A DNA stretch of 64,000 nucleotides, taken from contig CAJOND010000030.1 in the NCBI GenBank assembly GCA_905236675.1, positions 26,061-90,060 of the forward strand. The letters are read 5' to 3'. Both the position numbers and the translations under genes were made by a program. Positions 33 to 39,232 of the stretch are shown here, in pieces. The DNA comes from Candidatus Rifleibacteriota bacterium. GTDB taxonomy: Bacteria; Muiribacteriota; Ozemobacteria; Ozemobacterales; Ozemobacteraceae. Position 1 is the first letter of the stretch. Each line of letters begins with the position of its first letter. The notes below the pieces were generated by a model. The model was not told where the DNA came from. It saw nothing but the letters and a program-made list of their open reading frames with translations, and made no database searches.

Positions 33-2015
33 ATGTATTTTTTGGTAAGTTTCGTTAACTTTGTTTTCTTTATTTTTCCTAATTTACAAATAGACCCATT
101 ATATGTTGCTGGTATTTTGCCCATTATAATAGTGTGGTTGACTTCAATCGGCTTAATCTTTTCTATATATAAATTATCAAACAATAAGATATTGACTCTT
201 TTTGTGGCTTTAGGAATGATGCCTGGTTTTGCTGTTGAAACAGTATCGGGCTTTTTAAACATAGATTATGATTATTTAATAAGCTTTTTTATCTGGTCTT
301 GGATATTTTTCGGTGCTTTTTATATAAAGAGAGAGAATAATACTTACGTTTATCTTGGTTCAGTAGTAACGGCTTTGTTTATATCTACTTGGAATGGTTC
401 TCCTTTCTTTTATTTTTTTGTTACAACTTATGCATTTGTTCTATGGTTATTTAACACCAAAGATAATTCTTCATATCTGACTTACTCTTCTATAACAATG
501 CTTATAGGTAGCGTAGTAGCCATGATTTTTGTCCCTAGAAACGAAGAAACTATAAAATCTTTTATCAATTGTAATGTCGGGAGATATTCATATATTCAAG
601 GGGTATTTGTTTTTATAGGAGCCATTTTTATTGCTTTTTTGAATTATATAAAAAAGTCAAAAAAAACGAGATTGTTCGGCTTATCTTTATTAGCTCTGGT
701 TGTGATTATTTTAACTTTTTTATTTCATGATACTTTGTTTCAAGCTTCGGGTATTATTTTCCAAAAAGATCCTGTTCATGCCACTATAGGTGAACTTGAC
801 TATGGAGTAGAATTTAGAAATATCTATTTAGATGCTTTGAAAGGCTTTCTTTTCAGATTCGGTCCTTGTCTTATATTTTTCCCTGTAAGTTTATTATTGT
901 TCCCATCATTCTCTAAGCAGAAAGAAATAAAATTTATACTAGACTGGCTTTTATTATTTCTGGTTCTATCACTTTTCTATCAAATTAGGTATTATAGATG
1001 GATGGGTTGCGGTTATGGTTTGATAATAGGAATTAGCAGCTGGTGTTTTTGGGAAATGATTAAAAAGTTTTCTGTTAATCTTAGCCATTCATTTCAAAGA
1101 ACCGCTATTTGTATTCTGCCTTTTCTTTGGTTAGGAATAACTGTTAATTATGCTTGTATAAAAATACATACTAATTTAAAGAAAGATGAAATAACTCTTT
1201 ATAATTGGATAAAAGATAATACCCCTGAAACATCTGGCTATTCAGATGATAAAGATCCAGAATATGGGGTGCTAGCATACTGGGATGATGGAAATAAATT
1301 ATCTTTTTATACCAAAAGACCTGTGGTTGTAAGCAATTCATTATGGGGCTATAAGACTATGGCATGTATTTTCTCTTCTGAGAACGAGAAAGAAGCTTAT
1401 GAGCTATGTAAAAAATATGGAGTAAGATATACAGTCATAGCTCCATCAAGGCAAGTAGAGGATGAAAAAAATAGTATTTTACGTTATTGGCCTCTTTTTA
1501 AGAATATGCCTGAAACTTCTGAATATAAGCTTTATTATGGTGAATTGCCACAGAGGGATTCTTTTGATTTCTTTTTCTTTTGGTTAAGAGATAACATGGG
1601 GTTGACTCCAATGGGAGAATTCGGTAATAGCAGTCATTTCAGGCTGGTTTTTGCTAACGAGAATGATGGTAGAACCATTTCAAAATATTTTGTATTTCAA
1701 ACTGTTAAAGGGGCTGTTTGTAAATTTAAGGCTTTAGCAGGAGCGAAGGTTTCTCTTTCAATGGAATTTAATGTTGGTGAAATAGCATTTATATATAAAT
1801 CAGAAAAGACTGCTAACGAAGATGGAGTTTGTGAGTTTGTTCTGCCATACAGCAATGGCTATGATAGTGGAAATATAACAACAGATCCTTTCTATAAGGT
1901 TTCTATAGAAGAGACTGACGGGCAAAAAAGATTAGCCAAGCTTATCCTCACTGATAGTGATGTTGTAAATGGGCATGAAGTAGACTTAGCAAAATCCTTA
2001 GAGTATTTAGAATAA
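33..2015 (+). CDS. STT3/AglB/PglB-family oligosaccharyltransferase-like membrane protein; may start upstream of the window
   Basis: The N-terminal two thirds is multi-TM and the C-terminal part is soluble. LAYWDDGNKLSF aligns with the WWDYG catalytic motif. RPVVVSNSLWGYKTMACIFSSENEKEAYELCKKYGVRYTVIAP parallels the STT3 segment after WWDYG (R-T-x-LVDNNTWNN ... E-KAYEIMR-LDV-YVLV). NIDYDY is a candidate DxD motif. The frame is open from nt 3, with no start codon between nt 3 and nt 33. Confidence 0.6.
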   Translation: MYFLVSFVNFVFFIFPNLQIDPLYVAGILPIIIVWLTSIGLIFSIYKLSNNKILTLFVALGMMPGFAVETVSGFLNIDYDYLISFFIWSWIFFGAFYIKRENNTYVYLGSVVTALFISTWNGSPFFYFFVTTYAFVLWLFNTKDNSSYLTYSSITMLIGSVVAMIFVPRNEETIKSFINCNVGRYSYIQGVFVFIGAIFIAFLNYIKKSKKTRLFGLSLLALVVIILTFLFHDTLFQASGIIFQKDPVHATIGELDYGVEFRNIYLDALKGFLFRFGPCLIFFPVSLLLFPSFSKQKEIKFILDWLLLFLVLSLFYQIRYYRWMGCGYGLIIGISSWCFWEMIKKFSVNLSHSFQRTAICILPFLWLGITVNYACIKIHTNLKKDEITLYNWIKDNTPETSGYSDDKDPEYGVLAYWDDGNKLSFYTKRPVVVSNSLWGYKTMACIFSSENEKEAYELCKKYGVRYTVIAPSRQVEDEKNSILRYWPLFKNMPETSEYKLYYGELPQRDSFDFFFFWLRDNMGLTPMGEFGNSSHFRLVFANENDGRTISKYFVFQTVKGAVCKFKALAGAKVSLSMEFNVGEIAFIYKSEKTANEDGVCEFVLPYSNGYDSGNITTDPFYKVSIEETDGQKRLAKLILTDSDVVNGHEVDLAKSLEYLE

Positions 2016-5997: not shown

Positions 5998-6639
5998 ATT
6001 ATAGGTATAAGTGGATTATCAGGTTCCGGTAAAAGTAGTGTTACAAGGGCAGTTCTCGAACGTTTCCCGGGGAAAATCAGTTACCTTGAACACGATATGT
6101 ATTATTATGCCAAAAAGGATAGGCCGGTTATTCAGAACTTTGACCATCCGAGCGCATTGGAAACAAGTCTTTTGATAAAACATATCAATGACCTGCGCAG
6201 TGGCAAATCAGTAGAACGCCCGATCTATGATTTCAAAGTCAGTGATAGAAGCGATAAAACAGTTAGAGTAGACCCAAAACCCATCTTGATTGTTGAAGGT
6301 TTACTATTATTTAACATTCCAGAAATAATGCCTCTTCTTGATTTGAGAATCTTTGTTGACGTTCCTCTCGATGTAGCTATTATAAGAAGAATAAAACGCG
6401 ACCATGTTGAAAGAGGCAGATCGGTTCAAAGTATTATAACTCAGTATGAAAGCACTGTTCGTGATGCCGCAATACATCTGGTTCAACCATCAAGATATCT
6501 TGCAGATCTTATTATTCCGCAAGGTGCAAACAATCTTGCTGCCTTAGAAGTTCTCTACGGGAAAATAAGAGATCTGCTTGGCAGTAAAAACCCTGACGGT
6601 TTTATTAGAAGTTCAGAAAATGATGATGAGGAATATTAA
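5998..6639 (+). CDS. udk: uridine kinase; start codon unresolved
   Basis: Strong similarity to E. coli Udk: NFDHPSA, ILIVEGLLLF, RIKRDHVERGRS, IIPQG. The P-loop GISGLSGSGKSS is encoded at 6004-6039, upstream of the first in-frame ATG at 6097. The frame is closed by TAA at 5977. The ATG at 5991 is out of frame by one base. Confidence 0.8.
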   Translation: MIGISGLSGSGKSSVTRAVLERFPGKISYLEHDMYYYAKKDRPVIQNFDHPSALETSLLIKHINDLRSGKSVERPIYDFKVSDRSDKTVRVDPKPILIVEGLLLFNIPEIMPLLDLRIFVDVPLDVAIIRRIKRDHVERGRSVQSIITQYESTVRDAAIHLVQPSRYLADLIIPQGANNLAALEVLYGKIRDLLGSKNPDGFIRSSENDDEEY

Positions 6640-6892: not shown

Positions 6893-8080
6893 ATGACAGA
6901 AGAAAACAATAGCGCCAAAACCGTTTATAGAAGAGTAGTCATACCAGAAGAAGCAAAAAAGAAATTTTTAGTAGGTAATACTCCTCCTTTCTTAGGAAAG
7001 ACTTTTGAATTAACTCCTGGAACAATTTTTAGTATTGGTCGTGAAGAAGGAAAGACCTTACAGTTACCTAGCAGCATGGTTTCTCGTAATCATGCTAAGG
7101 TAGAACTTCAAGATGGCAGATGTATTCTCACTGATACAGATAGTTCTAATGGTACTTTTGCCAATGGTGAAAGACTCCCTGCTAATGAACCATATTTACT
7201 TACTCACCGCGATGTTATAAAATTTGATACTTATGAATTTATTTATGTTGATACGGCTGTTGGAGATATTTGGCAGACCTTAAAACCTCTTTCTAGAGAA
7301 GGTTCTCAAATAGTTTCTTTTTATAGCCCAAAAGGTGGAACAGGAATTACTACAATAATAGTAAATCTTGCTCATTATCTTAGCACTAAGGCAGAAAAGA
7401 AAGTAATAATAGTAGACTTAGATCTTAGATTTGGAGATGTTTTAACTTTTCTAAAAGGTAAACCTGGTCAGACTATTATTGAAGCTATTGGTGAAAGTGA
7501 TATTACTCCAGAAAATATTCAGAAATTTATTCATAAAGGTAGTGATTTTGATTATCTCGCTGCTCCAAAGAAAACAGAACTTGCCGAATTAATTAATCCA
7601 AATCATGTTAAGAGTATACTTTGGAGTCTAGAAGCCAATTATGACTTTGTTCTTGTTGATTTGCAGGCAGTTATAGATGATATAACCATTAATACCTGGG
7701 AACTATCCAACCTGATTTATCTAGTTGGACAACCAGAAATAGGTCATCTAATTGCGGCTAAACGTGTAATAGAAATTATGAATCAGTTTAAATATCCTGA
7801 TTCTAAATTCAAAGTTATTATGAATAAAGTCGGTCGTAACGGGGCTATACCAGCAGAAGAAATCAATGGCTTCCTAAAGAGAGAAACTATTACTCTACCA
7901 TATGCCCCAGATGATGCAATTTTAACATCTAATGCAGGTGAATTACTTCTTTCTCAAAAGCCTTCCTCGCCTTTAAGTGTTGGTATTGCTAATCTAGCTA
8001 GAACAATGATTGGAGAAGAAGTGGTTGTTCAACAAGATGGTGGTATTTTTGCTAAGTTAAAGTCACTTCTTGGAATGTAA
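6893..8080 (+). CDS. FHA domain fused to a TadZ/CpaE-like (MinD/ParA superfamily) ATPase domain with degenerate Walker A
   Basis: FHA core: GREEGKTLQLPSSMVSRNHAKVELQDGRCILTDTDSSNGTFANGERL. ATPase part: IVSFYSPKGGTGITTIIVNLA then VIIVDLDLRFGD. The Walker A reads KGGTGIT, with Ile where GK[ST] has Lys. Confidence 0.75.
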   Translation: MTEENNSAKTVYRRVVIPEEAKKKFLVGNTPPFLGKTFELTPGTIFSIGREEGKTLQLPSSMVSRNHAKVELQDGRCILTDTDSSNGTFANGERLPANEPYLLTHRDVIKFDTYEFIYVDTAVGDIWQTLKPLSREGSQIVSFYSPKGGTGITTIIVNLAHYLSTKAEKKVIIVDLDLRFGDVLTFLKGKPGQTIIEAIGESDITPENIQKFIHKGSDFDYLAAPKKTELAELINPNHVKSILWSLEANYDFVLVDLQAVIDDITINTWELSNLIYLVGQPEIGHLIAAKRVIEIMNQFKYPDSKFKVIMNKVGRNGAIPAEEINGFLKRETITLPYAPDDAILTSNAGELLLSQKPSSPLSVGIANLARTMIGEEVVVQQDGGIFAKLKSLLGM

Positions 8081-8095
8081 TAGAGGGTACTAACT

Positions 8096-9961
8096 GTGTC
8101 TGAAGACTTTTCAATGAAACGAGCTGGTAACTACACCCTTGTTCGTAAGCTTGGTGATGGAGGCTTTGCAACTGTTTATCTAGCACAGCATACTGTATTA
8201 GAAAAAAAAGCAGCTGTAAAGCTTCTATTAGGAGAATGGGTCGAAGAAGAAGATGTAGTTACTAGATTTTTCGATGAAGCTCGTACTATGGAAAGTGTCA
8301 GTGAGCATCCGAACATAGTCAAAATAATAGATATTGCAACCAAGGAAAAATGTCAGGAAGAGGGTTTGCCTCCGTATTTCATAATGGAATACCTTGAAGG
8401 TAAGTCCTTGGAAGACTTGATGAAATCTACTGATGGCTTTACATTAGAGCAAATAGTGAAAATAATGGACTGTGCTCTATCTGCTTTACAGTTCTGTCAT
8501 GATCATGGTGTGGTTCATCGTGATATAAAACCTAGTAACTTTATGATGGACGCAGATGGCAATGTTAAGCTCACAGATTTTGGAATAGCAAAAGCAGCAG
8601 AAAATACAAGCAAAACTGGTGAAGGTTTAACCTTAGGTTCAACAGATTATATGTCGCCTGAACAGGCTTTAGGTAAACGAGATTTAGACTATCGTTCTGA
8701 TATATATTCTCTAGGAGTGACTTTATATCAGTTAGTATGTGATAGATTACCTTTTATTGCCGACAGTGCGAATGCTGTTGCTTTGAAGCATATACAAGAA
8801 AAACCAATTCCACCAATAGAAATTAATGCTGGAGTCCCTAGAAGGCTAAATAATATAATCCTGAAAGCTATGGAAAAAGAGCGTGAACATCGCTTTCAGT
8901 CATGTAATGAAATGCGGGAAGAGCTCGACAAGCTTTTAGATCCTAATGCCGAAGATGTTCCAGAAGAGCCAAAAGGAAATAAAACAGGGGTAAGAACAGG
9001 GGTAAAAACTGCTACTTTCGACTTGAGTAATATTAAACCAGAAAATGGCGATGATGAATTCAGTCGTGATGATTATGATATTACGACTAACTATACAGGA
9101 ATGACTACTCGAAAGCTGGTTAAAAAGCCTCCAGTAGTGTTAGTTGGATTCATACGGGTAACACTTATCATAGCTATTGCTTCAATCTTCTTTTTATCGA
9201 TGTTTTATCTCTATGGAAAATATACGAATGTACATTTAAAAATTTCTAGCTCGCCTTCTGGGGCAAAAATATATATAAACAAAAATCTTGTTGGAACTTC
9301 GCCAATTGAGCTAGATATAGCTCCTGCTCAGTATCTGATTTCTTTCAATTATGAAGGATATGAACAGAAAAATAATGCATATGTCGGGGAGTCTGGCAAG
9401 CCCTTAGAAGTTTCAGTAAAACTTAAAAAAATAGATAATGAAGGAAAAGCCAAATTAAAAACAGAATTAGAAGAATTAAGTAAAGCTGTTGCTAACTTAG
9501 AGAAAACAGCTAATAGTAAGTCTAAAAAAGACCAGGCGAACCATGCAAAGTTTGAAGAAGAAGCTTTAAATTATTATAATTCTATTTATCAATTATTTGA
9601 AAATCATGATTATGATTTTGATTATGGTTTGTCATATTTAAAGGCTAGTAAAGAACTCAATAAACTAGAAGAAGCAAAAAATAATATTACTTCTTTGATT
9701 TCTAAAGGTAAAAATACTTCTGAAATGCATTGTTTATTAAGTTATTTCTATAAGGAACTTGGCGATAAAGATAACTATAGACAAGAACTAGAAACTGCTT
9801 ATTCCGTGCCCGAAGGTTCCAATAATAAAGATGTTCTAAATGCTTTTGGACAATATTTCTTAGAAACAGGCGAAATAGAATTTGCTAAACAATATTTAGA
9901 ATTATCACTGTTTTTGTATCCTGATCAGCCAGATATAAAAGCTAAAAAAGAAAAGCTTTAA
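8096..9961 (+). CDS. Hanks-type Ser/Thr protein kinase with TM helix, PEGA-like domain and TPR-like C-terminal region
   Basis: VAVK-type lysine (AAVKLL), HRDIKPSNFMM, DFGIAKA, SPEQ. TM helix VTLIIAIASIFFLSMFYLY. PEGA-like segment SSSPSGAKIYINKNLVGTSPIELD. The start is GTG at 8096; an alternative ATG is at 8114. Confidence 0.9.
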   Translation: MSEDFSMKRAGNYTLVRKLGDGGFATVYLAQHTVLEKKAAVKLLLGEWVEEEDVVTRFFDEARTMESVSEHPNIVKIIDIATKEKCQEEGLPPYFIMEYLEGKSLEDLMKSTDGFTLEQIVKIMDCALSALQFCHDHGVVHRDIKPSNFMMDADGNVKLTDFGIAKAAENTSKTGEGLTLGSTDYMSPEQALGKRDLDYRSDIYSLGVTLYQLVCDRLPFIADSANAVALKHIQEKPIPPIEINAGVPRRLNNIILKAMEKEREHRFQSCNEMREELDKLLDPNAEDVPEEPKGNKTGVRTGVKTATFDLSNIKPENGDDEFSRDDYDITTNYTGMTTRKLVKKPPVVLVGFIRVTLIIAIASIFFLSMFYLYGKYTNVHLKISSSPSGAKIYINKNLVGTSPIELDIAPAQYLISFNYEGYEQKNNAYVGESGKPLEVSVKLKKIDNEGKAKLKTELEELSKAVANLEKTANSKSKKDQANHAKFEEEALNYYNSIYQLFENHDYDFDYGLSYLKASKELNKLEEAKNNITSLISKGKNTSEMHCLLSYFYKELGDKDNYRQELETAYSVPEGSNNKDVLNAFGQYFLETGEIEFAKQYLELSLFLYPDQPDIKAKKEKL

Positions 9962-9982
9962 AAAGAAAGGAGCAGAGAGAAA

Positions 9983-10864
9983 ATGCGTTATTCATTTTAT
10001 GGTGAAACCAATGTTGGAAAAGTTCGAGATCACAATGAAGATGCTTTTTTGACCTCGGATAAACATTCTTTTGGAATGGTTTCAGATGGAATGGGTGGGT
10101 TAGCTGCAGGTGAAGTTGCATCTCAAATAGTTAAGGACTCAGTAAACTCTGCTTTTGAAACAGCTGAATCTGGGACCGCATTATCTAGAATTGTAAATGA
10201 TGCTATTACAATTGCTAATACCAATGTTAGAAAGGCTCAAAAAGATAAGCCCGAAGCCAGCGGAATGGGATGCACTTGTGTTCTATTAGCTTTTCGTAAG
10301 AAAGAGTATTGTTTAGGTTATGTTGGAGACAGTCGCATTTATAGATATAGAGATAACCAGCTTCAACAACTGACTGTTGATCATTCATATGTTGAAGAGC
10401 TTTTTCAAAGAGGTTTAATTAGTGCTGATGAAAAAAGCACACATCCGTATAAAAATTCTATTACCAGATATGTTGGTCATGAGGATATCATCAAGGTAGA
10501 TGTATCTTCTGGGCCATTAAAACCCGGTGACAGATTTGTTTTGTGTTCAGATGGTTTGCATGGGGAAGTTACAGATACACAAATAGCTGGTGTTCTCCGT
10601 GACAATATGAATCCTAAGGATTGTGTTGAAAAACTTATACAGATGGCTTTAGAACACGGCGGTAAAGATAATGTTTCTGTCGTAGTTGCTTCTGTTGAAA
10701 ATGACTTGGATGAATTATCTTCTGGACAATTAAGTGGAGAAATAGTTCATAAGAAAAATTCAAAGAAAAAAGGTCTTTTACAAAAGTTCTTAGGTCTCTT
10801 TATCGATGAAGATGATGAAGATGACAATAATGACAATAAAAAAAGCCCATTAAAAAATAATTAA
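9983..10864 (+). CDS. PP2C-family Ser/Thr phosphatase
   Basis: NEDAF, SDGMGG, GDSRIY, LCSDGL and GGKDNVSV motifs. The tail is acidic and lysine-rich. Confidence 0.9.
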   Translation: MRYSFYGETNVGKVRDHNEDAFLTSDKHSFGMVSDGMGGLAAGEVASQIVKDSVNSAFETAESGTALSRIVNDAITIANTNVRKAQKDKPEASGMGCTCVLLAFRKKEYCLGYVGDSRIYRYRDNQLQQLTVDHSYVEELFQRGLISADEKSTHPYKNSITRYVGHEDIIKVDVSSGPLKPGDRFVLCSDGLHGEVTDTQIAGVLRDNMNPKDCVEKLIQMALEHGGKDNVSVVVASVENDLDELSSGQLSGEIVHKKNSKKKGLLQKFLGLFIDEDDEDDNNDNKKSPLKNN

Positions 10865-10895
10865 TTTCTTTAATGGGCCATGTTTTGAAAATATA

Positions 10896-12116
10896 TTAGC
10901 CTAATCCAAATACTTCTTTAAATAGTGCAAACATACTCCAGGTTCCGTTATCTGTATTTTCGCCAGCTATGCTTGCACATATTTGTCTTACAGAAGCAAG
11001 AATACCAGAGCCGTCACTTCCTTTAGAAAGAACAAAAGGAACACCTTTGTTTACTGATGGAACAACTATTTCGCCTGCAGACGGTATAAAATAGCTTATT
11101 GCATAACGTAAAGATTTTTCTACTTTTGAGGGTTCTAAGCCTAGTGATTTAAAAGCTCTATTAAGTATGACTTTTACTTTTTCGCGTGGAATTTTTAATC
11201 TTTGGAATAAATCTAATAATACTTTGGTATTTTTTATGAAAGTTAATTCCATTGTCATAACTAACATAATCAGATTACTTATGTCTAAAATTTTCAATTC
11301 CAAATCTGTTAATTGATTATGAGTGTCTATAATAATAAAATCGTAGTGAGGTTTTAATAAATCAATTATTCTTTCAACCAGTTCTGGTCTAATTGTTTCA
11401 GCATGTTCTGGTAATGAAGGTGGAAGAAGTACTTTTAACCCGGAAGGTTGATGAATAGTCAATTGTTCTTCTATATGAGATAATTTAAGGGATTTTTTGT
11501 TTACAAGTTTATGAATATTTTTATCATTGTTTAAACCTAAAAGAATTGCCTGGTCGCCAAAAGCTAAGTTTAAATCCATTAATACAACTCGTTTTTTCCA
11601 AAATCTGGCTAGCATCGTTGCCACATTAGCAGATATTACAGATTTCCCCGCACCTCCTTTAACATTAAAGAAAGTGATTACACGAGCTGGCTGCCCTTTG
11701 TCACCTGTTTCTTCCAATAAAAGGTTGGCTCTGCGAGAATATAAATCTCTGGATTCTTTTGCAAAACCTTGATATAGACCGATTAATCTTAAGTAAACTT
11801 CTTTTGGTATATAGACGAGTCTTAATTCCTGGTAACCAATCAATGTAGCTAATGATTTGGTCCCATTTAATATTTCTACTTCACCATAAACATCACCTGG
11901 ATCTAAATTGAATAAAGTCTTTTTTTCTCCACCATAGTTTTTTAAAACGGAGAGTTGCCCTTCGACAACTAGTATTAAATCTTTAACTTCTTCTTTTTCT
12001 ATTAGAATAGTCGTTCCAGATGTATATTGCTGAACACGGCATTGTTTACTAAGTTTTTCTAATTCACGTGTTGGTAATGTACTGAAAAAAGAAAAATTTT
12101 TTAGGTTTATTATCAT
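10896..12116 (-). CDS. cyclic-nucleotide-binding domain fused to a TadZ/CpaE-like ATPase
   Basis: The N-terminal cNMP-binding fold reads FSTLPTRELEKL...GDVYGEVEILNG. ATPase part: ITFFNVKGGAGKSVISANVA then VVLMDLNLAFGD. I prefer the ATG at 12116, preceded by GGGGGA, over the TTG at 12128 used in the track. Confidence 0.75.
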   Translation of the reverse strand: MIINLKNFSFFSTLPTRELEKLSKQCRVQQYTSGTTILIEKEEVKDLILVVEGQLSVLKNYGGEKKTLFNLDPGDVYGEVEILNGTKSLATLIGYQELRLVYIPKEVYLRLIGLYQGFAKESRDLYSRRANLLLEETGDKGQPARVITFFNVKGGAGKSVISANVATMLARFWKKRVVLMDLNLAFGDQAILLGLNNDKNIHKLVNKKSLKLSHIEEQLTIHQPSGLKVLLPPSLPEHAETIRPELVERIIDLLKPHYDFIIIDTHNQLTDLELKILDISNLIMLVMTMELTFIKNTKVLLDLFQRLKIPREKVKVILNRAFKSLGLEPSKVEKSLRYAISYFIPSAGEIVVPSVNKGVPFVLSKGSDGSGILASVRQICASIAGENTDNGTWSMFALFKEVFGLG

Positions 12117-12288
12117 AAATTCCCCCAAAGAGCTACGTAATTATATTTTACACAATAATTTTCTTCTTATCAATGAATTTTGATTTTACAGTTATAAAAT
12201 ATTATTAAAATGCTTTTTTTATTTAAAAAAGGTAAACTTTTATATAAAAATAGGGTATCATTATAAGCAATGTATAGGGGGAAATTTT

Positions 12289-13575
12289 ATGTACAAACAT
12301 ACCAATCTTTTGTTGGCAGTTTGGGTGGCTACATTTATGCTGGTCAATCCAATCTTTGCTAATTCTCCGTTTGATGTAAATACTTCTGTTAAAGACTCTA
12401 CATTATCAGTTGGAACTTCTGATTCAAGTGAATCAATAGTTTCCATTTCTTCTGAGTCAGATGAATCTACAACAAAAATGAGTGGTGTTGTTACGGCAGA
12501 AGCATTGAATATTCGTTCAGCTCCATGGGGCGATATAATTGGTACCTACAAAAAAGGTGATAAAATAGAAATATTAGGCACTTTAGGAGATTGGTACAAA
12601 GTAGAATATAACGGAAAAACTGGTTACGTTCATGGTAACTGGGTTACTACACCGAATAAAAAAGGTCAGACAAAAGCTAAATATGGCGTTGTTAGTAACT
12701 GTTATTGGCTGAATGTAAGAAGAACTCCATCTGGGGATATTTTAACTCAGTTTAAGAGTGGTCAGCAGGTTTATATTCTAGGTGAAGTCGGTGATTGGTA
12801 TAAAATTAAATATAATGGAAATGAAGCTTTTGTTTCTAAGAAATATATAGATTTGACAGATTCTGCTTCTTCCGGTTCAACTACTACTAATAATAGTAGT
12901 AATTCTAGTTTCGAATCATTCACGGGCTACGTTAATGCTACTGCTTTAAATGTTAGAGATGGTGAATGGGGAACAATTGTTGGAAGTCTTTATAAAGGTG
13001 ATGCAGTAAAAGTAATCGGAAAGAGCGGAGATTGGTATCTTGTTGAATTTAATGGTAAAACAAGATACGTATCTGCAAATTATATCTATAATTCAAAAGT
13101 TTCTGATGATTCTCCAACTAGTTCACAAAGCACTAGTAATGCTATTTCTGCAGGTAATGGTACTTTACAGCAAAAGATAGTTTCTTCTGCCAGATCATTA
13201 GTAGGAAGCACTAATTTTAGAACTTCTGATGTAAGCGGTGGACGATTGGCCTGTGCTAAGGTTGCAACTACTGCTTTAAAGAATGCTGGTGCTTTAGATA
13301 GAGTTTACTTGAATTGTCGTGATTCTGTTAAAGCATTAAAAGCAAAAGGCTGGGTAGAAGTTACTCCACCACCTTATCAGGAAGGTGACGTTATTACTTG
13401 GAAAACATACGATTATACTGGTGATGGTATTAAAGATGAAGATACACATATTGGTATTATTCTTAAAGATGGCAATACTTATAAAGCTATGAATAACTCT
13501 TCTTCTTTAAGAACTCCTCGTATTACAAACATTAATATTGCACCAGTTTCAAGAGTTCTAAGAAAAGTTAATTGA
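12289..13575 (+). CDS. secreted protein with three SH3b domains and a C-terminal Cys/His papain-like (NlpC/P60- or CHAP-type) putative cell-wall hydrolase domain
   Basis: Signal peptide. Three repeats of ALNIR...GDWYKVEYNGKTGYV type. C-terminal GGRLACAKVATTALKNAG ... DTHIGIIL. Confidence 0.6.
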   Translation: MYKHTNLLLAVWVATFMLVNPIFANSPFDVNTSVKDSTLSVGTSDSSESIVSISSESDESTTKMSGVVTAEALNIRSAPWGDIIGTYKKGDKIEILGTLGDWYKVEYNGKTGYVHGNWVTTPNKKGQTKAKYGVVSNCYWLNVRRTPSGDILTQFKSGQQVYILGEVGDWYKIKYNGNEAFVSKKYIDLTDSASSGSTTTNNSSNSSFESFTGYVNATALNVRDGEWGTIVGSLYKGDAVKVIGKSGDWYLVEFNGKTRYVSANYIYNSKVSDDSPTSSQSTSNAISAGNGTLQQKIVSSARSLVGSTNFRTSDVSGGRLACAKVATTALKNAGALDRVYLNCRDSVKALKAKGWVEVTPPPYQEGDVITWKTYDYTGDGIKDEDTHIGIILKDGNTYKAMNNSSSLRTPRITNINIAPVSRVLRKVN

Positions 13576-13583
13576 GGTAATAG

Positions 13584-14570
13584 ATGAAATCATTTTCTCT
13601 TTTATATGTTGCTGCTTTTCTGGGTCTGGCAAGTCTTTGCCAGGCTCAGACCTGGAATTTAAATTATGGAAACGAAGAAGGCAAAGTTGCCTTTTATAAC
13701 AGTAAAAGTGACCCTAATTTTGCAGAGGACTCCCCCTATGGTCCGATGGCATTTAGGGTTATAGACGATAAATTATGGGTTTTGGATTCCATAGTTGGAA
13801 AACTAGTCTGTTTTGATAAAAATGGCAAAGTATTAAAATCTATTATTGTTCCTAATTTAGAAGGTTTTAAACTTCTTGAGGACTTTGCTTTGTCTGGTGA
13901 TGATAAAAATAATCCGGAAGCTGTATGGATAGCAAATGCTGCAGATTGTATTGTTAGAAAAATATCTATTTCTGACGGTAAAGTTCTTGCAGAAGTTGGC
14001 GGGAATGAAAATGTATCCGGGAAAATATTACAGGTTAGCCAGTTGGAAGTTGATGCTGGTGGGCGTTTGTATATTGCGGATATAGCAAGAAATACTTTGT
14101 CTGTTTTTACTTCTACAGGTTCATTTTTACGAGAATATCCGTGGCAGTCGTCTGGATTTTTTGTAGATAAAAATGCAAATCTTCATTTGCTTCATTATCT
14201 TGATAATACTGGTTATTTCCATAGGATTTACTCGACGAAAGGTCAACTTATAAAGAATGTGCACTTGGGTCTGGTAAATAATACCAATGTTAAGCTGTTA
14301 AAAGTTGAAGAAGATGGATCCGTTATTTTATCAATGATTCCCAAAGAAGGGTTCAAAGGGGTAATGCTTTTATATAAAATAGATAAAATGGGAATTATTA
14401 GAGAAAAACTGGAATATGTTCCTCCTTCTACCATGAATAGAGATATTTGTCTTGATGGAGATAATATTTTTCTTGCAGAGGCCAATTTTGAAACAGCTCC
14501 TAATACAAAATTTGTTATAAAACCTCTGAAATGGGATAAAAAGTCCTCCTTTAATGATGGGGCAAAGTAA
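13584..14570 (+). CDS. secreted beta-propeller-like (NHL-like) protein
   Basis: Signal peptide LGLASLCQAQ. NHL-like strands such as GRLYIADIARNTLSVFTSTGSF. Confidence 0.5.
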   Translation: MKSFSLLYVAAFLGLASLCQAQTWNLNYGNEEGKVAFYNSKSDPNFAEDSPYGPMAFRVIDDKLWVLDSIVGKLVCFDKNGKVLKSIIVPNLEGFKLLEDFALSGDDKNNPEAVWIANAADCIVRKISISDGKVLAEVGGNENVSGKILQVSQLEVDAGGRLYIADIARNTLSVFTSTGSFLREYPWQSSGFFVDKNANLHLLHYLDNTGYFHRIYSTKGQLIKNVHLGLVNNTNVKLLKVEEDGSVILSMIPKEGFKGVMLLYKIDKMGIIREKLEYVPPSTMNRDICLDGDNIFLAEANFETAPNTKFVIKPLKWDKKSSFNDGAK

Positions 14571-14591
14571 AACTGACCCAAGGAAATAAAA

Positions 14592-15431
14592 ATGAAACAA
14601 AGAATTAAAACTATACTGTTTTTATTGTTATTTTTAATAAGTTTAACATCTTCTGTCACTGCTTTGGAGATTAAATCAGAATCGATTACCAAAATACCAG
14701 ATGATATTTCTGCAAATATAATTGGTATGCGTGTATATAAAGAATTAGCTTATATAATGAACGCTAATGGCAAATATATAATAATTAATCTGACAGATGG
14801 CGATATTTCAAGTTTTAAAATTGACAGTGCTAATAAAATCCTTGATTTTGATGTAGTCTTAGGAAAAATTATATATTTAGATGATCAAGGAATGCTAGGT
14901 GGTCATGCGTTTCCAAAATGGTCAAAAGGACCTTATAAAGATGTCTGTCAAATAGAAGCCTGTGACCAGGGATTAATTCTTTCTGGTGGTAACAATTCAT
15001 ATTTTTTATCTAAAAATGCTACTACAAGTATAGAGTTACCTGAAATTAATTTTGCATTACCAGTAAATAATGGTTTTATCTGGTCTATGTCATTAGATAA
15101 AGAAAAACATTGGCAAGCTAACCTTTACGATTGTTTTGGAAATCTGATGGGTAATGTTTATAAATTCAGCGAATATTTTGAACCTACTAATATTGAAATC
15201 GGTCCTAATGGTATTGAAGGTGAAATGCTTATTTCTGCAACAGAAGGAGCAGTAAGAACTCTTGCTCTTATAGGTAATAACGGAAGAATGTTCTGGAAAA
15301 TTAATGGACCTCAGAAAGTTTGTGCTAGAGATGTAGGCTTTGATCAGATGGATGATTTGATTGTTTTAGATAGAAATACTGATGGAGATATAGTTATATC
15401 AAGATGGAAATTTACTATTCCAGAAGGCTGA
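14592..15431 (+). CDS. secreted protein of unknown function
   Basis: Signal peptide. The ORF is tightly spaced within the operon. No motif recognised. Confidence 0.6.
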   Translation: MKQRIKTILFLLLFLISLTSSVTALEIKSESITKIPDDISANIIGMRVYKELAYIMNANGKYIIINLTDGDISSFKIDSANKILDFDVVLGKIIYLDDQGMLGGHAFPKWSKGPYKDVCQIEACDQGLILSGGNNSYFLSKNATTSIELPEINFALPVNNGFIWSMSLDKEKHWQANLYDCFGNLMGNVYKFSEYFEPTNIEIGPNGIEGEMLISATEGAVRTLALIGNNGRMFWKINGPQKVCARDVGFDQMDDLIVLDRNTDGDIVISRWKFTIPEG

Positions 15432-15449: not shown

Positions 15450-16130
15450 ATGAGTAATGCTGAATTGAGATTGTTTCTGGTTTTTAAGGTAAAAAATGAT
15501 TTTATAATAAAAAGAAAAACAGGTTTTACCTTAATGGAAATAATGATTGTAATTATTGTTATTGCTATTCTTGCCTCCATTGCTGGGCCAATGATTGGCA
15601 ACATAACAGATCAAGGACGTTCTTCTGCAACAAAGACGAAGTTAGATACTTTAAAGCAGGCTTTGATTAAGTATAACAGTGATATTGGTCGTTTCCCTAG
15701 TATGAGTGCTGATGTTACAGATGTTAGGGCTTTTTGCCAAGATAGAGTAATGAATCTTGAAGGTAGAACTGACAATAAATACAATGTTTTAATTAGCAAT
15801 AATAATGTTGAAGTCAACATGAATAATTACGAAAAAAGATGGAATGGTCCTTATATGGATTCTGACCCTTCAGATTTTATGTATGATTCATGGGGTAATC
15901 CTATTTGGTATATAAGGTATTATAAAAATTTATATTTATGGTCAGCAGGGGCTGATGGAGAATTCTATAAGAAAGGTAAATTCTATAATGCTGATTGTGC
16001 TTTTAGGCAACAGTCTAATGAGGAAAACGAACTCTGTGATGATATATTAATATCAGTTTATAGATTTAAAAAAGCAGCTCCAGAAGATAAGTCAATGGAA
16101 CAGACCCCTCCTCCTAAAATACACTTATAA
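15450..16130 (+). CDS. GspG-like type II secretion/type IV pilus major pseudopilin
   Basis: Prepilin motif KTGFTLMEIMIVIIVIAILASIAGP. GspG-like TKTKLDTLKQALIKYNSDIGRFPS and DSWGNPIWY. The leader is unusually long (24 aa) if the ATG at 15450 is used. Confidence 0.75.
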   Translation: MSNAELRLFLVFKVKNDFIIKRKTGFTLMEIMIVIIVIAILASIAGPMIGNITDQGRSSATKTKLDTLKQALIKYNSDIGRFPSMSADVTDVRAFCQDRVMNLEGRTDNKYNVLISNNNVEVNMNNYEKRWNGPYMDSDPSDFMYDSWGNPIWYIRYYKNLYLWSAGADGEFYKKGKFYNADCAFRQQSNEENELCDDILISVYRFKKAAPEDKSMEQTPPPKIHL

Positions 16131-24392: not shown

Positions 24393-25045
24393 TATTCAGG
24401 CATTGCTCCCCTTTCTTTAACACTAATAACACATTCATTAGTATACTTATCGCTTTCTGTATGACCTATTTTTATTTTTATATAGGTATTGCCTTGACGA
24501 ATAGCATCTGGATCTTCTTTTTTATAAAAAATACATTCATCTATAGCATGAAGTACTTCATAATCTTTTTTTTCTTCAACATATTTTTTTTCATTAATAT
24601 AAACCATAAATCTTCTAAGATTCCATTTCCCGGGAACATCCTCGCAAGGCACTACATAATAAGTTATATCATTGGTTGAATAATTTACTTCGTCATCAGG
24701 AATTTCATCTGGTTTTCTAGAAAAATCATAATTGAGTTTGATTAATTGCAATTTATTTTCTGATTCATCAATAGGATCTGATTCTGTTGTTGTTAATTCT
24801 TCAATTTGGGACTCAGTTAAAACAGGAGGATAGGAAGCAATAGAATTGGCTTCTCTTATGTCGTTTGTTATTCTTATCAGCGTTTTATCTAACTCATCGT
24901 TAATGACATGGTTTTCCAGTATTTCTTTAGCATTTTTTCGGCTAGCAGAATAAACATGCCATATTGCTGTTAAAATCAACGACATAATTATTAAACCAAC
25001 CATTAATTCAACAACAGTAAAGCCCTTCCTATGCATGAATATCAC
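24392..25045 (-). CDS. minor pseudopilin (GspJ/PilW-like size)
   Basis: Prepilin N-terminus HRKGFTVVELMVGLIIMSLILTAIW. 217 aa. 4-nt overlap with the upstream gene. Confidence 0.75.
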   Translation of the reverse strand: MIFMHRKGFTVVELMVGLIIMSLILTAIWHVYSASRKNAKEILENHVINDELDKTLIRITNDIREANSIASYPPVLTESQIEELTTTESDPIDESENKLQLIKLNYDFSRKPDEIPDDEVNYSTNDITYYVVPCEDVPGKWNLRRFMVYINEKKYVEEKKDYEVLHAIDECIFYKKEDPDAIRQGNTYIKIKIGHTESDKYTNECVISVKERGAMPE

Positions 25046-25524
25046 CTCGGAGAAAGAATAGTATGAATATCTAGGTGATGTTCTTTCCCATCTTTCCCTT
25101 TGTATTCAATACGATATTTAAAAGCATATATTTTGGGAATAGCTTCCGAACCTGAATTTATGCTAGAAATAGAGTCTATGCTAGTATATTTTTTATCTCT
25201 AGAAATTTTATAGGTGATTCCATTCATTTCATAGGTATTATATTCGTTATCTTCTTCGTTTTGAAGCTTATATTCAAAAGTCTTCTTATATTCCTCAGTA
25301 TTTGATTGGTATCTATCTGAGTCAAGCATATTAAATGGGAAAGATTTCGCTATTTCGAGCATTTTATTAGCAAGAAAAGCAGCTTGAGAGTGGTCTCTTG
25401 TGGCTGTAACTGTTTGAGTCTGACTAATAACAACATTTAAAGAAGGAATTAAGATTAGTGCCAATAATATGACACCAATCATTACTTCAACTAAAGATAC
25501 TGCTTTTTTATTATTTATACTCAT
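25042..25524 (-). CDS. minor pseudopilin (GspI-like size)
   Basis: N-terminus NKKAVSLVEVMIGVILLALILIPS, a prepilin-like hydrophobic helix with Glu at +5. 160 aa. Confidence 0.65.
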   Translation of the reverse strand: MSINNKKAVSLVEVMIGVILLALILIPSLNVVISQTQTVTATRDHSQAAFLANKMLEIAKSFPFNMLDSDRYQSNTEEYKKTFEYKLQNEEDNEYNTYEMNGITYKISRDKKYTSIDSISSINSGSEAIPKIYAFKYRIEYKGKDGKEHHLDIHTILSPR

Positions 25525-39187: not shown

Positions 39188-39232
39188 ATAATAAATGTTG
39201 TCGTAAGACAAAAAATTTCAGGAGGAATTAAT

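What the first reader, a model, noticed from the sequence alone, without database searches (positions are those of the whole stretch)
6893..12128. Kinase/phosphatase cassette flanked by two TadZ/CpaE-like ATPases carrying FHA and cyclic-nucleotide-binding sensor domains
Four adjacent genes form this cassette:
- 6893-8080: an FHA domain fused to a MinD/ParA-superfamily domain.
- 8096-9961: a Hanks Ser/Thr kinase with TM helix, PEGA-like and TPR-like ectodomain.
- 9983-10864: a PP2C phosphatase.
- 10896-12116 (convergent): a cNMP-binding domain fused to a second MinD/ParA-type domain.

Both ATPase domains carry KGGxG followed by (V/I)(I/L)xDL(D/N)LxFGD, the pattern I associate with the Tad-pilus positioning protein TadZ/CpaE. 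Canonical TadZ/CpaE has a degenerate receiver domain at its N-terminus. Here that position is taken by a phospho-threonine reader in one protein and a cyclic-nucleotide sensor in the other.

This suggests a filament-machinery positioning or licensing module driven by Ser/Thr phosphorylation and cNMP rather than two-component signalling. No tadA/tadB/tadC/tadV/rcpA genes are adjacent. The only Tad-type substrates in the window are two Flp pilins 27 kb away.
Basis: partly seen in the sequence, partly recalled or inferred. Interest (0 to 1): 0.75.

Follow-up and report, generated by a model that had tools for sequence, protein, structure and literature searches.

The report
Kinase-wired TadZ-like positioning ATPase pair
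An uncultured bacterial phylum (Riflebacteria) keeps a gene cassette in which two pilus-positioning-type (TadZ-like) ATPases have swapped their usual receiver domain for a phospho-threonine reader or a cyclic-nucleotide-type fold and sit beside a Ser/Thr kinase and phosphatase; what they position is unknown, and no nearby gene ties them to Tad pili.

Summary
All four genes exist at the stated coordinates and every domain call passes its curated threshold. The organism is a member of Candidatus Riflebacteria. The cassette is conserved across that phylum down to about 45-50% identity.

The TadZ/CpaE affinity is supported. Profiles of both ATPase families score TadZ proteins from canonical Tad loci at 175-208 bits, MinD at 36-75 and ParA at 19-40. 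They also share the DL(D/N)LxFG(D/N) signature.

Three things change the picture:
- The FHA-ATPase family has lost the P-loop lysine in 83 of 83 members, which is a TadZ-like trait. The CNB-ATPase family keeps it.
- The "cNMP sensor" lacks the phosphate-binding arginine in 31 of 31 members, so cAMP/cGMP sensing is doubtful.
- Both proteins end in conserved MinD-like amphipathic tails.

No Tad machinery gene lies near the cassette in 7 loci, or near Flp genes in 5 Riflebacteria loci. Related sensor-swapped TadZ-like ATPases elsewhere sit beside PP2C, STAS or SpoIIE genes, not Tad loci.

Best reading: a membrane-peripheral positioning or scaffolding switch gated by Ser/Thr phosphorylation, derived from TadZ, with unknown cargo. 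It is a new variant of a known kind.

The parts
6893..8080 (+). FHA-TadZ-like ATPase, 395 aa. FHA is at about aa 24-120 (nt 6962-7252). A flexible linker follows. The A/D ATPase core is aa 139-373 (nt 7307-8011). Walker A is KGGTGIT (nt 7331-7351), which lacks the P-loop Lys. The C-terminal amphipathic tail is GGIFAKLKSLLGM (nt about 8045-8077).
   Evidence: Pfam FHA 61.6 and AAA_31 45.7 bits. The pThr-binding residues G49/R50, S64/H67 and N86/G87 are invariant in 33 homologues. Walker A is KGG[TSAV]G[ILV][ST] in 83/83 family members. The AF2 model has pLDDT 82.9 with a terminal helix at 385-392 on a disordered tether. The family HMM scores Tad-locus TadZ at 175-178 bits and MinD at 44-75.
8096..9961 (+). 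Membrane Hanks-type Ser/Thr kinase, 621 aa. Kinase domain aa 13-268, Thr-rich juxtamembrane segment aa 269-344, one TM helix at about aa 345-375 (nt 9128-9220), an extracytoplasmic PEGA domain aa 380-445, and a helical, weakly TPR-like C-terminus.
   Evidence: Pkinase 174.6 and PEGA 40.8 bits. G-loop, K42, HRDIKPSN, DFG and SPE motifs are present, with a hydrophobic window at 341-375. It lies 15 nt after the preceding gene, which implies an operon.
9983..10864 (+). PP2C-family Ser/Thr phosphatase (Stp1/IreP type), 293 aa, with a basic-amphipathic then acidic C-terminal tail (KKKGLLQKFLGLF...DEDDEDD).
   Evidence: NCBIfam Stp1_PP2C_phos 239.4 bits, above the 230 cut-off. PP2C_2 62.1 bits. Tail sequence. 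It lies 21 nt after the kinase gene.
10844..10879 (.). 14-bp-stem hairpin with flanking T/A runs between the convergent PP2C and CNB-ATPase genes. It is a likely bidirectional terminator separating two transcription units.
   Evidence: Terminator-like site from the consensus scan; sequence.
10896..12116 (-). CNB-fold-TadZ-like ATPase, 406 aa from the ATG at 12116 (an upstream TTG at 12128 is possible). The CNB domain is aa 1-133 (nt 11718-12116), with a non-canonical phosphate-binding cassette YGEVEILNGTKSLAT (nt 11844-11888). The ATPase core is aa about 145-383 (nt 10968-11684) with an intact Walker A, KGGAGKS. The C-terminal amphipathic tail is WSMFALFKEVFGLG.
   Evidence: cNMP_binding 43.9 and AAA_31 46.1 bits. 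The PBC Arg position is A/S/C/T/V in 31/31 members. KGGAGKS occurs in 85/88 members. The CNB fold has TM 0.7-0.8 to PKA/PKG CNB domains. The family HMM scores Tad-locus TadZ at 180-208 bits and MinD at 36-63. It clusters with L006/L007-type TadZ, excluding MinD, in 67% of bootstraps.
12289..15431 (+). Conserved neighbour trio, divergently transcribed from the CNB-ATPase. It comprises a secreted 3xSH3b protein with a CwpFM/EntFM-like C-terminal domain (12289-13575), a beta-propeller-like secreted protein (13584-14570) and an unknown 279-aa secreted protein (14592-15431). A functional link to the cassette is not shown.
   Evidence: SH3_3 124 bits. EntFM_CwpFM 127 bits over aa 53-414, below threshold. 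The same trio lies next to the CNB-ATPase in L001, L004, L005 and L021 but not in L003 or L022.

Best explanation
This is a signalling-plus-positioning module conserved across Candidatus Riflebacteria. Its core is a three-gene operon: FHA-ATPase, transmembrane Hanks kinase, PP2C phosphatase. A paralogous CNB-ATPase is usually encoded convergently next to it.

Shown:
- Both ATPases are ParA/MinD-superfamily proteins whose closest relatives are TadZ/CpaE proteins of canonical Tad loci.
- The N-terminal receiver domain of those relatives has been replaced by an FHA domain with an intact pThr pocket, or by a CNB fold lacking the phosphate-binding Arg.
- Each ATPase ends in a conserved MinD-like amphipathic tail.
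- The FHA-ATPase has lost the P-loop lysine throughout its family. The CNB-ATPase keeps a complete deviant Walker A.

Inferred mechanism:
1. The kinase senses an envelope cue through its PEGA/helical ectodomain and phosphorylates Thr residues, either on its own Thr-rich juxtamembrane segment or on a partner.
2. The FHA-ATPase docks on that pThr at the membrane.
3. PP2C reverses the mark.
4. The hydrolysis-impaired FHA-ATPase acts as a nucleotide-dependent scaffold, in the way TadZ does.
5. It may pair with the catalytically competent CNB-ATPase in a sandwich dimer. The CNB domain responds to a ligand other than canonical cAMP/cGMP, or to none.

The cargo that is placed or licensed is unknown. 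A type IV filament machine and cell-wall or division machinery are the two main candidates.
For: - Domains and thresholds.
- Phylum-wide conservation: about 83 and about 88 clusters at 90% identity, all with the same architectures and all named Riflebacteria where named.
- Synteny. At least 25 homologue pairs sit on contigs of identical length.
- TadZ affinity:
  - Reciprocal HMM scores.
  - The nearest non-family homologues sit between the secretin and TadA genes of full Tad loci.
  - A shared DL(D/N)LxFG(D/N) motif.
  - 5 of 9 context-verified TadZ also lack the P-loop Lys.
- FHA pocket residues are invariant.
- Walker A statistics.
- Conserved amphipathic tails, with a hydrophobic moment like that of the MinD membrane-targeting sequences. 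Model with a tethered terminal helix.
- The kinase is catalytically complete and has one TM helix.
- Tight operon spacing and a separating hairpin.
- A wider pattern points the same way:
  - Multi-FHA-ATPases (KGGVGTT) overlap a PP2C gene.
  - CNB-ATPases of the P0227 type sit in STAS/REC-SpoIIE units.
  - A canonical-PBC CNB-ATPase has PP2C and a kinase within 10 kb.
Against: - No experiment exists for any member.
- The FHA family's deep phylogenetic position is unresolved. Fold comparison cannot separate TadZ from MinD, FlhG or Soj, and solved TadZ 3FKQ is not among the top hits.
- The heterodimer idea has no direct support here; no multimer prediction was possible.
- In one lineage the CNB-ATPase is unlinked from the operon. 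In another, two metabolic genes are inserted.
- The cargo is unidentified.
- The membrane-binding role of the tails is inferred from sequence only.
Confidence: 0.6

Rival explanations
1. The two proteins are the TadZ/CpaE equivalents of a genetically dispersed Tad (Flp) pilus or other type IV filament machine. They position or license it in response to Ser/Thr phosphorylation and a small ligand instead of a two-component input.
For: - Their closest relatives are bona fide TadZ in Tad loci.
- Flp-type pilins exist in the window and in other Riflebacteria.
- Type IV filament parts are scattered through the window: pseudopilins, a GspF/PilC homologue and a secretin that scores 110 bits against an RcpA profile. 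Dispersed Tad systems are documented in Bdellovibrio, where an ARD-less TadZ is recruited by another protein (bioRxiv 10.64898/2026.07.08.737194).
- FHA proteins accompany the Myxococcus Kil Tad-like machine (PMC8460266).
- One Riflebacteria paralogue lies 2.3 kb from two Flp genes.
Against: - No TadA/B/C/V/RcpC lies in 7 cassette loci or 5 Flp loci.
- The Flp adjacency of the third paralogue is not conserved in its relatives, whereas a STAS gene is.
- Pseudopilin genes occur roughly every 13 kb in this window, so proximity is expected by chance.
- Whether the genome encodes a Tad ATPase at all could not be determined.
Confidence: 0.27
2. The module regulates cell-envelope growth or division-site placement. 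It would be analogous to the actinobacterial PknB/PstP/FhaA/FhaB system together with the CpaE-like Ssd protein. The ATPases would act as MinD-like membrane-bound spatial regulators.
For: - The kinase and phosphatase score best against the Stk1/PknB and Stp1 models.
- The FHA domain hits FhaB/FipA and GarA/OdhI models.
- The recurrent neighbours are a CwpFM-like SH3b peptidase-like protein, NamZ, a Mur ligase and a class A PBP.
- Both ATPases carry MinD-type C-terminal tails.
- A CpaE homologue in mycobacteria has been discussed as a septum-site protein (NCBIfam TIGR03815 name; PMC10482377).
Against: - The peptidoglycan-gene neighbourhood is seen mainly in closely related genomes and is lost in L002 and L022, so it may be inherited gene order.
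- The kinase has PEGA, not PASTA.
- No minC/minE or fts genes are adjacent.
- The MinD models score far below threshold: 65 and 69 bits against a cut-off of 213.
Confidence: 0.25
3. The 'four-gene cassette' is really two independent units. One is the FHA-ATPase/kinase/PP2C operon. The other is the CNB-ATPase with the divergently transcribed SH3b trio. Their adjacency reflects shared ancestry of paralogues, not joint function.
For: - The two units are transcribed convergently, with a strong hairpin between them.
- The CNB-ATPase is on a different contig in GCA_015232575.1 and is separated by PGI and glyoxalase genes in L021.
- It is paired with the SH3b trio in 5 loci.
Against: - The two families share the same phyletic range and are linked in at least 25 contig pairs across 45-90% identity.
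- They are contiguous in L022, where the SH3b trio is absent.
- Their Walker A states are complementary, one lacking the P-loop Lys and one complete, which suggests partnership.
Confidence: 0.2
4. It is an anti-phage defence system built around a Ser/Thr kinase.
For: The kinase domain matches the PADLOC PD-T4-6 and Mad6 kinase models at 239-311 bits and NCBIfam MADS6 at 179 bits, below the 460 cut-off.
Against: - These are generic Hanks-kinase similarities.
- The other three proteins give only 19-37-bit hits.
- The cassette sits in conserved chromosomal synteny with housekeeping genes across a phylum, which is unlike a defence island.
Confidence: 0.03

Closest known systems
TadZ/CpaE, the ParA/MinD-family positioning ATPase of Tad (Flp) pili
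   Same: - It is the closest ATPase-domain relative by profile scores.
- The Walker A-like motif K/RGGxGxS/T is shared, including frequent loss of the P-loop Lys.
- The DL(D/N)LxFG(D/N) motif is shared.
- Total length is similar, about 400 aa, with an N-terminal regulatory domain of about 130 aa.
- Some Tad-locus TadZ also end in MinD-like tails (GRIFSLFTGG).
   Different: - The N-terminal (atypical) receiver domain is replaced by FHA or by a CNB fold.
- The genes are not in a tad locus in any genome examined.
- They are paired with a Hanks kinase and PP2C instead.
MinD (and FlhG/FleN), membrane-binding A/D ATPases
   Same: The fold is the same (TM 0.73-0.86). There is a C-terminal amphipathic tail on a flexible tether. 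The CNB-ATPase has a full deviant Walker A.
   Different: - Profile scores are more than 100 bits below those for TadZ.
- The MinD equivalog models are far below threshold.
- No MinC/MinE or flagellar partners are adjacent.
- Neither family groups with MinD in bootstraps (2-4%).
Bdellovibrio TadZA with RomR (bioRxiv 10.64898/2026.07.08.737194)
   Same: It is a precedent for a TadZ module that lacks the ARD, receives spatial information through a different interaction module, and belongs to a genetically dispersed Tad system with FHA, TPR and PilZ regulators nearby.
   Different: There, TadZ is fused to TadA and recruited by a polarity protein. Here, the sensor domains are fused to stand-alone TadZ-like ATPases, and no TadA is known.
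Actinobacterial PknB/PstP/FhaA/FhaB cluster and the CpaE-like Ssd (Rv3660c)
   Same: The logic of Hanks kinase, PP2C and FHA reader encoded together is the same. A CpaE-like ATPase has also been discussed outside pilus assembly (PMC10482377).
   Different: In that system the FHA domain and the ATPase are separate proteins. The kinase ectodomain here is PEGA, not PASTA. The phylum is unrelated.
Trypanosomatid PKA regulatory subunit CNB domains (PMC10959531, PMC6440977)
   Same: The CNB fold lacks the phosphate-binding-cassette Arg. Those structures appear among the structural hits (6FLO, 6H4G, 6HYQ). They bind nucleosides rather than cAMP.
   Different: They are eukaryotic kinase regulators. 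The ligand of the Riflebacteria domain is unknown.
PDB 3EA0, 'ParA family ATPase' from Chlorobium tepidum
   Same: It is the best solved relative of both ATPase domains by sequence (75.7 and 64.5 bits) and by structure (TM 0.87).
   Different: It is an uncharacterised structural-genomics entry of 245 residues with no sensor domain. Its genomic context was not examined.

Membership tests
TadZ/CpaE | ATPase domain most similar to TadZ/CpaE among ParA/MinD subfamilies | tested here: met
   Family HMMs score Tad-locus TadZ at 175-208 bits, MinD at 36-75 and ParA at 19-40. The best annotated plasmid hits are TadZ inside Tad loci. The tree supports this for the CNB family (67%) and is unresolved for the FHA family.
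TadZ/CpaE | Walker A-like motif K/RGGxGxS/T (consensus quoted in bioRxiv 10.64898/2026.07.08.737194) | tested here: met
   KGGTGIT and KGGAGKS in the window proteins; family-wide statistics.
TadZ/CpaE | N-terminal (atypical) receiver domain | tested here: not met
   There is no Response_reg hit. FHA occupies aa 24-120 and CNB occupies aa 1-133.
TadZ/CpaE | Encoded in a tad/cpa locus next to tadA/cpaF | tested here: not met
   0 of 7 cassette loci contain TadA/B/C/V/RcpC within 10 kb.
TadZ/CpaE | Polar localisation, and requirement for Flp pilus assembly | not testable with these tools
   This needs genetics and microscopy in an uncultured phylum or a heterologous host.
MinD | Passes the curated MinD equivalog models | tested here: not met
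   TIGR01968 gives 65.2 and 69.3 bits against a cut-off of 212.9. True TadZ give similar sub-threshold scores.
MinD | Deviant Walker A KGGxxK[ST] with both lysines | tested here: inconclusive
   Met by the CNB-ATPase (KGGAGKS). Not met by the FHA-ATPase, which has I/L/V in place of the P-loop Lys in 83/83 members.
MinD | C-terminal amphipathic membrane-targeting helix | tested here: met
   The tails GGIF[SAG]KL[KR]SxLG[FLM] and TW[NS]MF[SA]xx[KR][ED]V[FL]G are conserved, with hydrophobic moments comparable to MinD tails. A predicted terminal helix is seen in the models. Function is inferred, not shown.
MinD | minC/minE partners | tested here: not met
   None is present in the window or in the flanks of the homologous loci.
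FHA phosphothreonine-binding domain | Pfam threshold, plus the conserved Gly-Arg, Ser-x-x-His and Asn-Gly pocket residues | tested here: met
   61.6 bits against a cut-off of 20.7. G49, R50, S64, H67, N86 and G87 are invariant in 33 homologues.
Cyclic-nucleotide-binding (CNB) domain | Pfam threshold and CNB fold | tested here: met
   43.9 bits against a cut-off of 27.5. TM is 0.7-0.8 to PKA/PKG CNB domains.
Cyclic-nucleotide-binding (CNB) domain | Phosphate-binding-cassette arginine that contacts the cyclic phosphate (PKA RI-alpha R209, CRP R82; established knowledge) | tested here: not met
   The aligned position is Ser in the window protein and A/S/C/T/V in 31/31 homologues. The register was checked against PKA sequences. 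A distant homologue, P0233, keeps GTPRTAT.
Hanks-type Ser/Thr kinase with Stp1-type PP2C | Catalytic motifs and curated thresholds | tested here: met
   Pkinase 174.6 bits with all motifs present. Stp1_PP2C_phos 239.4 bits, above the 230 cut-off.
Anti-phage defence systems (PADLOC) | Specific matches of several components to one system | tested here: not met
   Only generic kinase-domain matches were found. The other proteins score at most 37 bits.

The most novel reading that the evidence does not exclude
The FHA-ATPase (a nucleotide-binding pseudo-ATPase that keeps its signature lysine) and the CNB-ATPase (catalytically complete) form an asymmetric, membrane-bound heterodimer. A transmembrane Ser/Thr kinase and a PP2C switch its assembly on and off through pThr-FHA docking. 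This would be a Ser/Thr-phosphorylation-driven spatial-organisation system that evolved from TadZ and works independently of Tad pili. It would belong to a wider, undescribed class of sensor-swapped TadZ-like ATPases (multi-FHA, CNB with STAS/SpoIIE) found in several lineages.
Probability: 0.3. Interest if true: 0.75.

Novelty: new variant of a known kind. Interest (0 to 1): 0.55.

Why it matters
ParA/MinD ATPases are the main known way bacteria place large machines and organelles, and their inputs are usually partner proteins or two-component-type receivers.

A phylum-wide family in which the receiver slot of a TadZ-type ATPase is filled by a phospho-threonine reader and hard-wired to a Hanks kinase and PP2C would show that eukaryote-like Ser/Thr signalling can directly gate spatial organisation.

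The paired loss and retention of the P-loop lysine, and the arginine-less CNB domain, give concrete and testable biochemical predictions. The multi-FHA and STAS-linked relatives suggest a broader class that current annotation lumps under 'CpaE', 'MinD-like' or 'AAA family ATPase'.

It also cautions against inferring Tad pili from 'CpaE' annotations.

Tried and rejected
1. A first NJ tree on a poorly trimmed alignment (394 columns) was uninformative and was discarded. A first bootstrap run timed out.
2. Structural search cannot separate the A/D subfamilies. 3EA0, MinD, FlhG, FleN and Soj all score alike, and TadZ 3FKQ is absent from the top hits.
3. NCBIfam has no Gram-negative TadZ model. The 'MinD top hit' was shown to be uninformative because true TadZ behave the same way.
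4. I looked for Tad machinery around Flp genes of Riflebacteria genomes, using home-made TadA, TadB/C, TadV, RcpC, RcpA and TadE profiles. None was found.
5. I followed the one Flp-adjacent TadZ-like paralogue (L026). The adjacency did not recur in its relatives.
6. I tested whether clusters flanking the cassette in L021 and L022 match the window's secretin/HEAT cluster. The only hit was a weak HEAT match.
7. Defence-system membership was rejected.
8. Literature searches for FHA- or CNB-fused TadZ/CpaE and for Riflebacteria cell biology found nothing specific. Xu et al. 2012 (PMC3272108) is not held.
9. Rfam found no RNA element in the window.
10. The C-terminal domain of the SH3b neighbour has no solved relative by sequence.

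Full report
**What is there**

- 6893-8080(+), 395 aa.
- 8096-9961(+), 621 aa, GTG start.
- 9983-10864(+), 293 aa.
- 10896-12128(-).

Every domain assignment passes its curated threshold:
- FHA 61.6 bits and AAA_31 45.7 bits in protein 1.
- Pkinase 174.6 and PEGA 40.8 in protein 2.
- PP2C_2 62.1 and the NCBIfam Stp1/IreP equivalog 239.4 against a cut-off of 230 in protein 3.
- cNMP_binding 43.9 and AAA_31 46.1 in protein 4.

The kinase has all Hanks catalytic motifs, a Thr-rich juxtamembrane stretch and one TM helix. The first three genes are 15 and 21 nt apart, which indicates an operon. A 14-bp-stem hairpin at 10844-10879 separates them from the convergent fourth gene.

**Whose genome, and is the arrangement conserved**

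Homologues that carry names are all from Candidatus Riflebacteria/Rifleibacteriota, including Ozemobacteraceae. Each ATPase belongs to a tight family of about 83 and about 88 clusters (90% identity clusters). These families span 43-92% and 54-90% identity to the window proteins, and the domain architecture never varies.

The gene order FHA-ATPase, kinase, PP2C, then the convergent CNB-ATPase recurs in:
- a complete 5.2-Mb genome (L001);
- Ozemobacter sibiricus (L004/L005);
- a 51%-identity lineage (L022);
- a 48%-identity lineage with two inserted metabolic genes (L021).

At least 25 homologue pairs of the two families sit on contigs of identical length. In GCA_015232575.1 only the three-gene operon is kept, and the CNB-ATPase lies on another contig. 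The robust core is therefore the operon. The CNB-ATPase is a usually linked paralogue: 26% identity to the FHA-ATPase over the whole ATPase domain, E 1e-25.

**Are the ATPases TadZ/CpaE-like**

Yes, by several independent tests.

1. *Nearest relatives and their context.* Outside their own families, the best hits are REC+AAA_31 proteins of about 400-440 aa. They share 35-44% identity with the CNB-ATPase and 27-31% with the FHA-ATPase. Three that I examined sit between the secretin and TadA genes of complete Tad loci, in the order Flp, A24 peptidase, TadE, Tad, RcpC, secretin, TadZ, TadA, TadB, TadC.
2. *Annotated records.* Against annotated plasmids and chromids, the top hits of both ATPase domains are again TadZ inside Tad loci. 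Paraburkholderia gives E 9e-27 and 3e-15; Burkholderia gives 1e-13. MinD reaches only 1e-8 to 5e-5.
3. *Reciprocal profiles.* I built profiles from 81 and 82 family ATPase domains.

| Target | FHA-family profile (bits) | CNB-family profile (bits) |
|---|---|---|
| Tad-locus TadZ (L006/L007 type; CNB column also L008) | 175-178 | 180-208 |
| The other Riflebacteria family | 130-140 | 90-124 |
| MinD | 44-75 | 36-63 |
| ParA | 24-40 | 19-35 |

It is absent from MinD (DxDIGLRNLD) and from ParA.
5. *Tree.* A bootstrapped NJ tree on 247 columns gives:
   - MinD monophyletic in 100% of replicates.
   - The CNB family grouping with L006/L007-type TadZ, excluding MinD, in 67%.
   - The FHA family joining TadZ in 11% and MinD in 2%, which leaves it unresolved.

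Two methods could not discriminate. Fold comparison gives 3EA0 TM 0.87 and MinD, FlhG, FleN and Soj TM 0.73-0.86. NCBIfam has no TadZ model, and genuine TadZ also give sub-threshold MinD hits.

**New details that change the picture**

(a) *Walker A.* In the FHA-ATPase family the Walker A is KGG[TSAV]G[ILV][ST] in 83 of 83 members. The canonical P-loop lysine is always hydrophobic, while the signature lysine is kept. The CNB-ATPase family keeps KGGAGKS in 85 of 88 members. Loss of this lysine is itself TadZ-like: 5 of 9 context-verified TadZ here lack it, and the published TadZ consensus is K/RGGxGxS/T (bioRxiv 10.64898/2026.07.08.737194).

(b) *FHA pocket.* The pThr-binding residues are invariant: G49-R50, S64/H67 and N86-G87.

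(c) *CNB domain.* The fold is genuine, with TM 0.7-0.8 to PKA/PKG CNB domains. Its phosphate-binding cassette reads YGEVEILNGT-x-x-LAT. The position aligned to the cyclic-phosphate-binding Arg of PKA and CRP is A/S/C/T/V in 31 of 31 members. Trypanosomatid PKA regulatory subunits lack the same Arg and bind nucleosides instead of cAMP (PMC10959531, PMC6440977), and they are among the structural hits. 'Cyclic-nucleotide sensor' is therefore not a safe description.

(d) *C-terminal tails.* Both families end in strongly conserved amphipathic tails, GGIFSKLKSxLGF and TWNMFSLxKEVFGL. Their hydrophobic moment is like that of MinD membrane-targeting sequences. In the model the tail forms a short helix on a disordered tether. 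Two Tad-locus TadZ have similar tails. The PP2C also carries KKKGLLQKFLGLF near its end.

All four proteins are thus predicted to act at the cytoplasmic face of the membrane.

**Is it about Tad pili**

Context does not say so.
- I built TadA, TadB/C, TadV, RcpC, RcpA and TadE profiles from the verified Tad loci. With them I found none of these within 10 kb of the cassette in 7 loci.
- I found none near Flp genes in 5 Riflebacteria or related loci fetched with the window's Flp pilin.
- Only the window's secretin at 62552-63946 matches the RcpA profile. A PilB/GspE-type ATPase in L021 matches TadA weakly.
- One genome has a third paralogue, a CNB-fused ATPase with a degenerate Walker A, 2.3 kb from two Flp genes. 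In its relatives the conserved neighbours are a STAS protein and a REC-SpoIIE phosphatase, not Flp.

The neighbours that recur around the cassette in the Ozemobacter-like genomes relate to the cell wall: a 3xSH3b protein resembling the peptidase CwpFM, NamZ, a Mur ligase and a class A PBP. A nucleotide cyclase lies nearby in Ozemobacter. These are lost in more divergent genomes, so they may reflect inherited gene order. Whether Riflebacteria encode a Tad ATPase anywhere could not be determined with the tools at hand.

**A wider class**

An exhaustive search of 1.84 billion representatives found several related groups:
- *Multi-FHA-ATPases.* These are 518-849 aa, share about 25-29% identity over FHA plus ATPase, have Walker A KGGVGTT and end in basic amphipathic tails. 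One overlaps a PP2C gene and lies next to a chemotaxis cluster.
- *CNB-fused ATPases with an FHA-family-like ATPase domain.* P0227 and P0230 have KGG[VA]GCT and the tail GGIFSKIRAFF. They sit in STAS/SpoIIE units.
- *A distant full-length homologue of the CNB-ATPase.* P0233 has a canonical PBC (GTPRTAT) and an intact Walker A. A PP2C and a kinase lie within 10 kb of it.

None of these is in a Tad locus. The common denominator is Ser/Thr-phospho signalling. I found no paper describing any of these architectures. Automated names are 'FHA domain-containing protein', 'MinD-like ATPase', 'CpaE family ATPase' or 'AAA family ATPase'.

**Most likely mechanism**

*Shown:* the domain composition, motif states, conservation and TadZ affinity described above.

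*Inferred:*
1. The kinase senses an envelope signal through its PEGA/helical ectodomain and phosphorylates Thr residues on itself or on a partner.
2. The FHA-ATPase is recruited to that pThr at the membrane.
3. PP2C resets the system.
4. The lysine-less FHA-ATPase behaves as a slow or non-hydrolysing, nucleotide-dependent scaffold, as proposed for TadZ.
5. It may form an asymmetric sandwich dimer with the catalytically complete CNB-ATPase. The CNB domain of that partner responds to a non-cNMP ligand or serves as an interaction module.

My estimates for the cargo are about 27% for a type IV filament machine and about 25% for cell-wall or division machinery. The rest is open.

**Verdict**

This is not a member of TadZ/CpaE in the strict sense, because it has no receiver domain and no tad locus. 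It is a TadZ-derived variant with swapped sensor domains and a Ser/Thr-kinase input, conserved across a candidate phylum and part of a broader uncharacterised class. Novelty: new variant of a known kind. Interest: moderate to good (0.55), limited by the unknown cargo and the lack of any experimental handle in an uncultured phylum.

Noticed in passing
L026:6502-7689(-) and L026:7757-10418 (GCA_015232575.1, JADFZL010000001.1): A third TadZ-like paralogue occurs in a Riflebacterium. It has cNMP_binding + AAA_31, a degenerate Walker A (SPKDGSGRTT) and an FHA-family-type tail (GGIFSKIKSFFG). It lies beside a STAS gene, an unknown 495-aa gene and two Flp pilin genes. Relatives (P0227; L105-L107) keep the STAS gene and a convergent REC-SpoIIE phosphatase, but not the Flp genes.
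   Followed up: yes
window 39164-39406 and 39440-39667: Two tandem Flp-type pilin genes carry the G/xxxxEY motif (GQGLVEYALIIGL). They sit between ispE and an SH3b protein, with no Tad machinery nearby. Their Pfam Flp_Fap scores are just under the cut-off (31.7 and 25 against 32.2). A GspF/PilC-type platform gene lies 6 kb downstream (45451-46656, -).
   Followed up: partly
window 52995-63946 (- strand): This cluster holds a short secretin (464 aa; Secretin + Secretin_N; 110 bits against an RcpA profile), an 869-aa HEAT-repeat protein, an unknown 268-aa protein, a 1200-aa Big_5/Kelch protein and an unknown 667-aa protein. It may be an atypical type IV filament or secretion cluster. The secretin's upstream region runs off the window.
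   Followed up: partly
window 15450-16130, 24392-25045, 25042-25524, 21984-24392: Several prepilin-type N-methylation-motif (pseudopilin) genes are scattered through the window. One is GspG-like. Two lie beside an 802-aa protein with no Pfam match. Their density, roughly one per 13 kb, means that proximity of any gene to a pseudopilin is weak evidence.
   Followed up: no
window 6097-6639 (+), upstream to about 5985: The uridine kinase ORF as listed lacks its P-loop. The P-loop (GISGLSGSGKSS) lies in the same frame upstream of the first ATG/GTG/TTG, so the gene probably starts at a non-canonical codon.
   Followed up: partly
window 33-2015 (+): A 660-aa protein matches the archaeal-type oligosaccharyltransferase AglB core and peripheral domains. 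This is an unusual find in a bacterium and hints at protein N-glycosylation. A sulfatase-family (LTA-synthase-like) membrane protein follows on the opposite strand.
   Followed up: no
window 9983-10864, C-terminus (aa 255-293): The PP2C phosphatase ends in a basic amphipathic stretch (KKKGLLQKFLGLF) followed by an acidic tail (DEDDEDDNNDN). It resembles a MinD-type membrane-targeting sequence, which suggests a peripheral membrane phosphatase rather than the TM-anchored PstP type.
   Followed up: no
L024:7115-10331; proteins P0220-P0229, P0243, P0272: A separate family of 518-849-aa proteins carries 2-3 FHA domains fused to a TadZ-like ATPase. Their Walker A is KGGVGTT and they end in basic amphipathic tails. 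In L024 the gene overlaps an upstream PP2C gene and adjoins a CheA/W/B/R cluster. They are uncharacterised.
   Followed up: partly
L006:8001-9329 and L007:8001-9326: The Tad-locus TadZ proteins closest to the window ATPases carry strongly scoring CheY-like receiver domains (about 88 bits) rather than 'degenerate' ones. They keep KGGVGKT and end in MinD-like tails (GRIFSLFTGG). L007 is from a Bacillota MAG whose Tad locus includes a secretin.
   Followed up: no
window 49211-51424 and 52273-52959: A rhomboid protease carries an N-terminal extension of about 400 aa (737 aa in total). A DSP-PTPase-like phosphatase (228 aa) is also present. Both are additional signalling or processing proteins of unknown role.
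   Followed up: no
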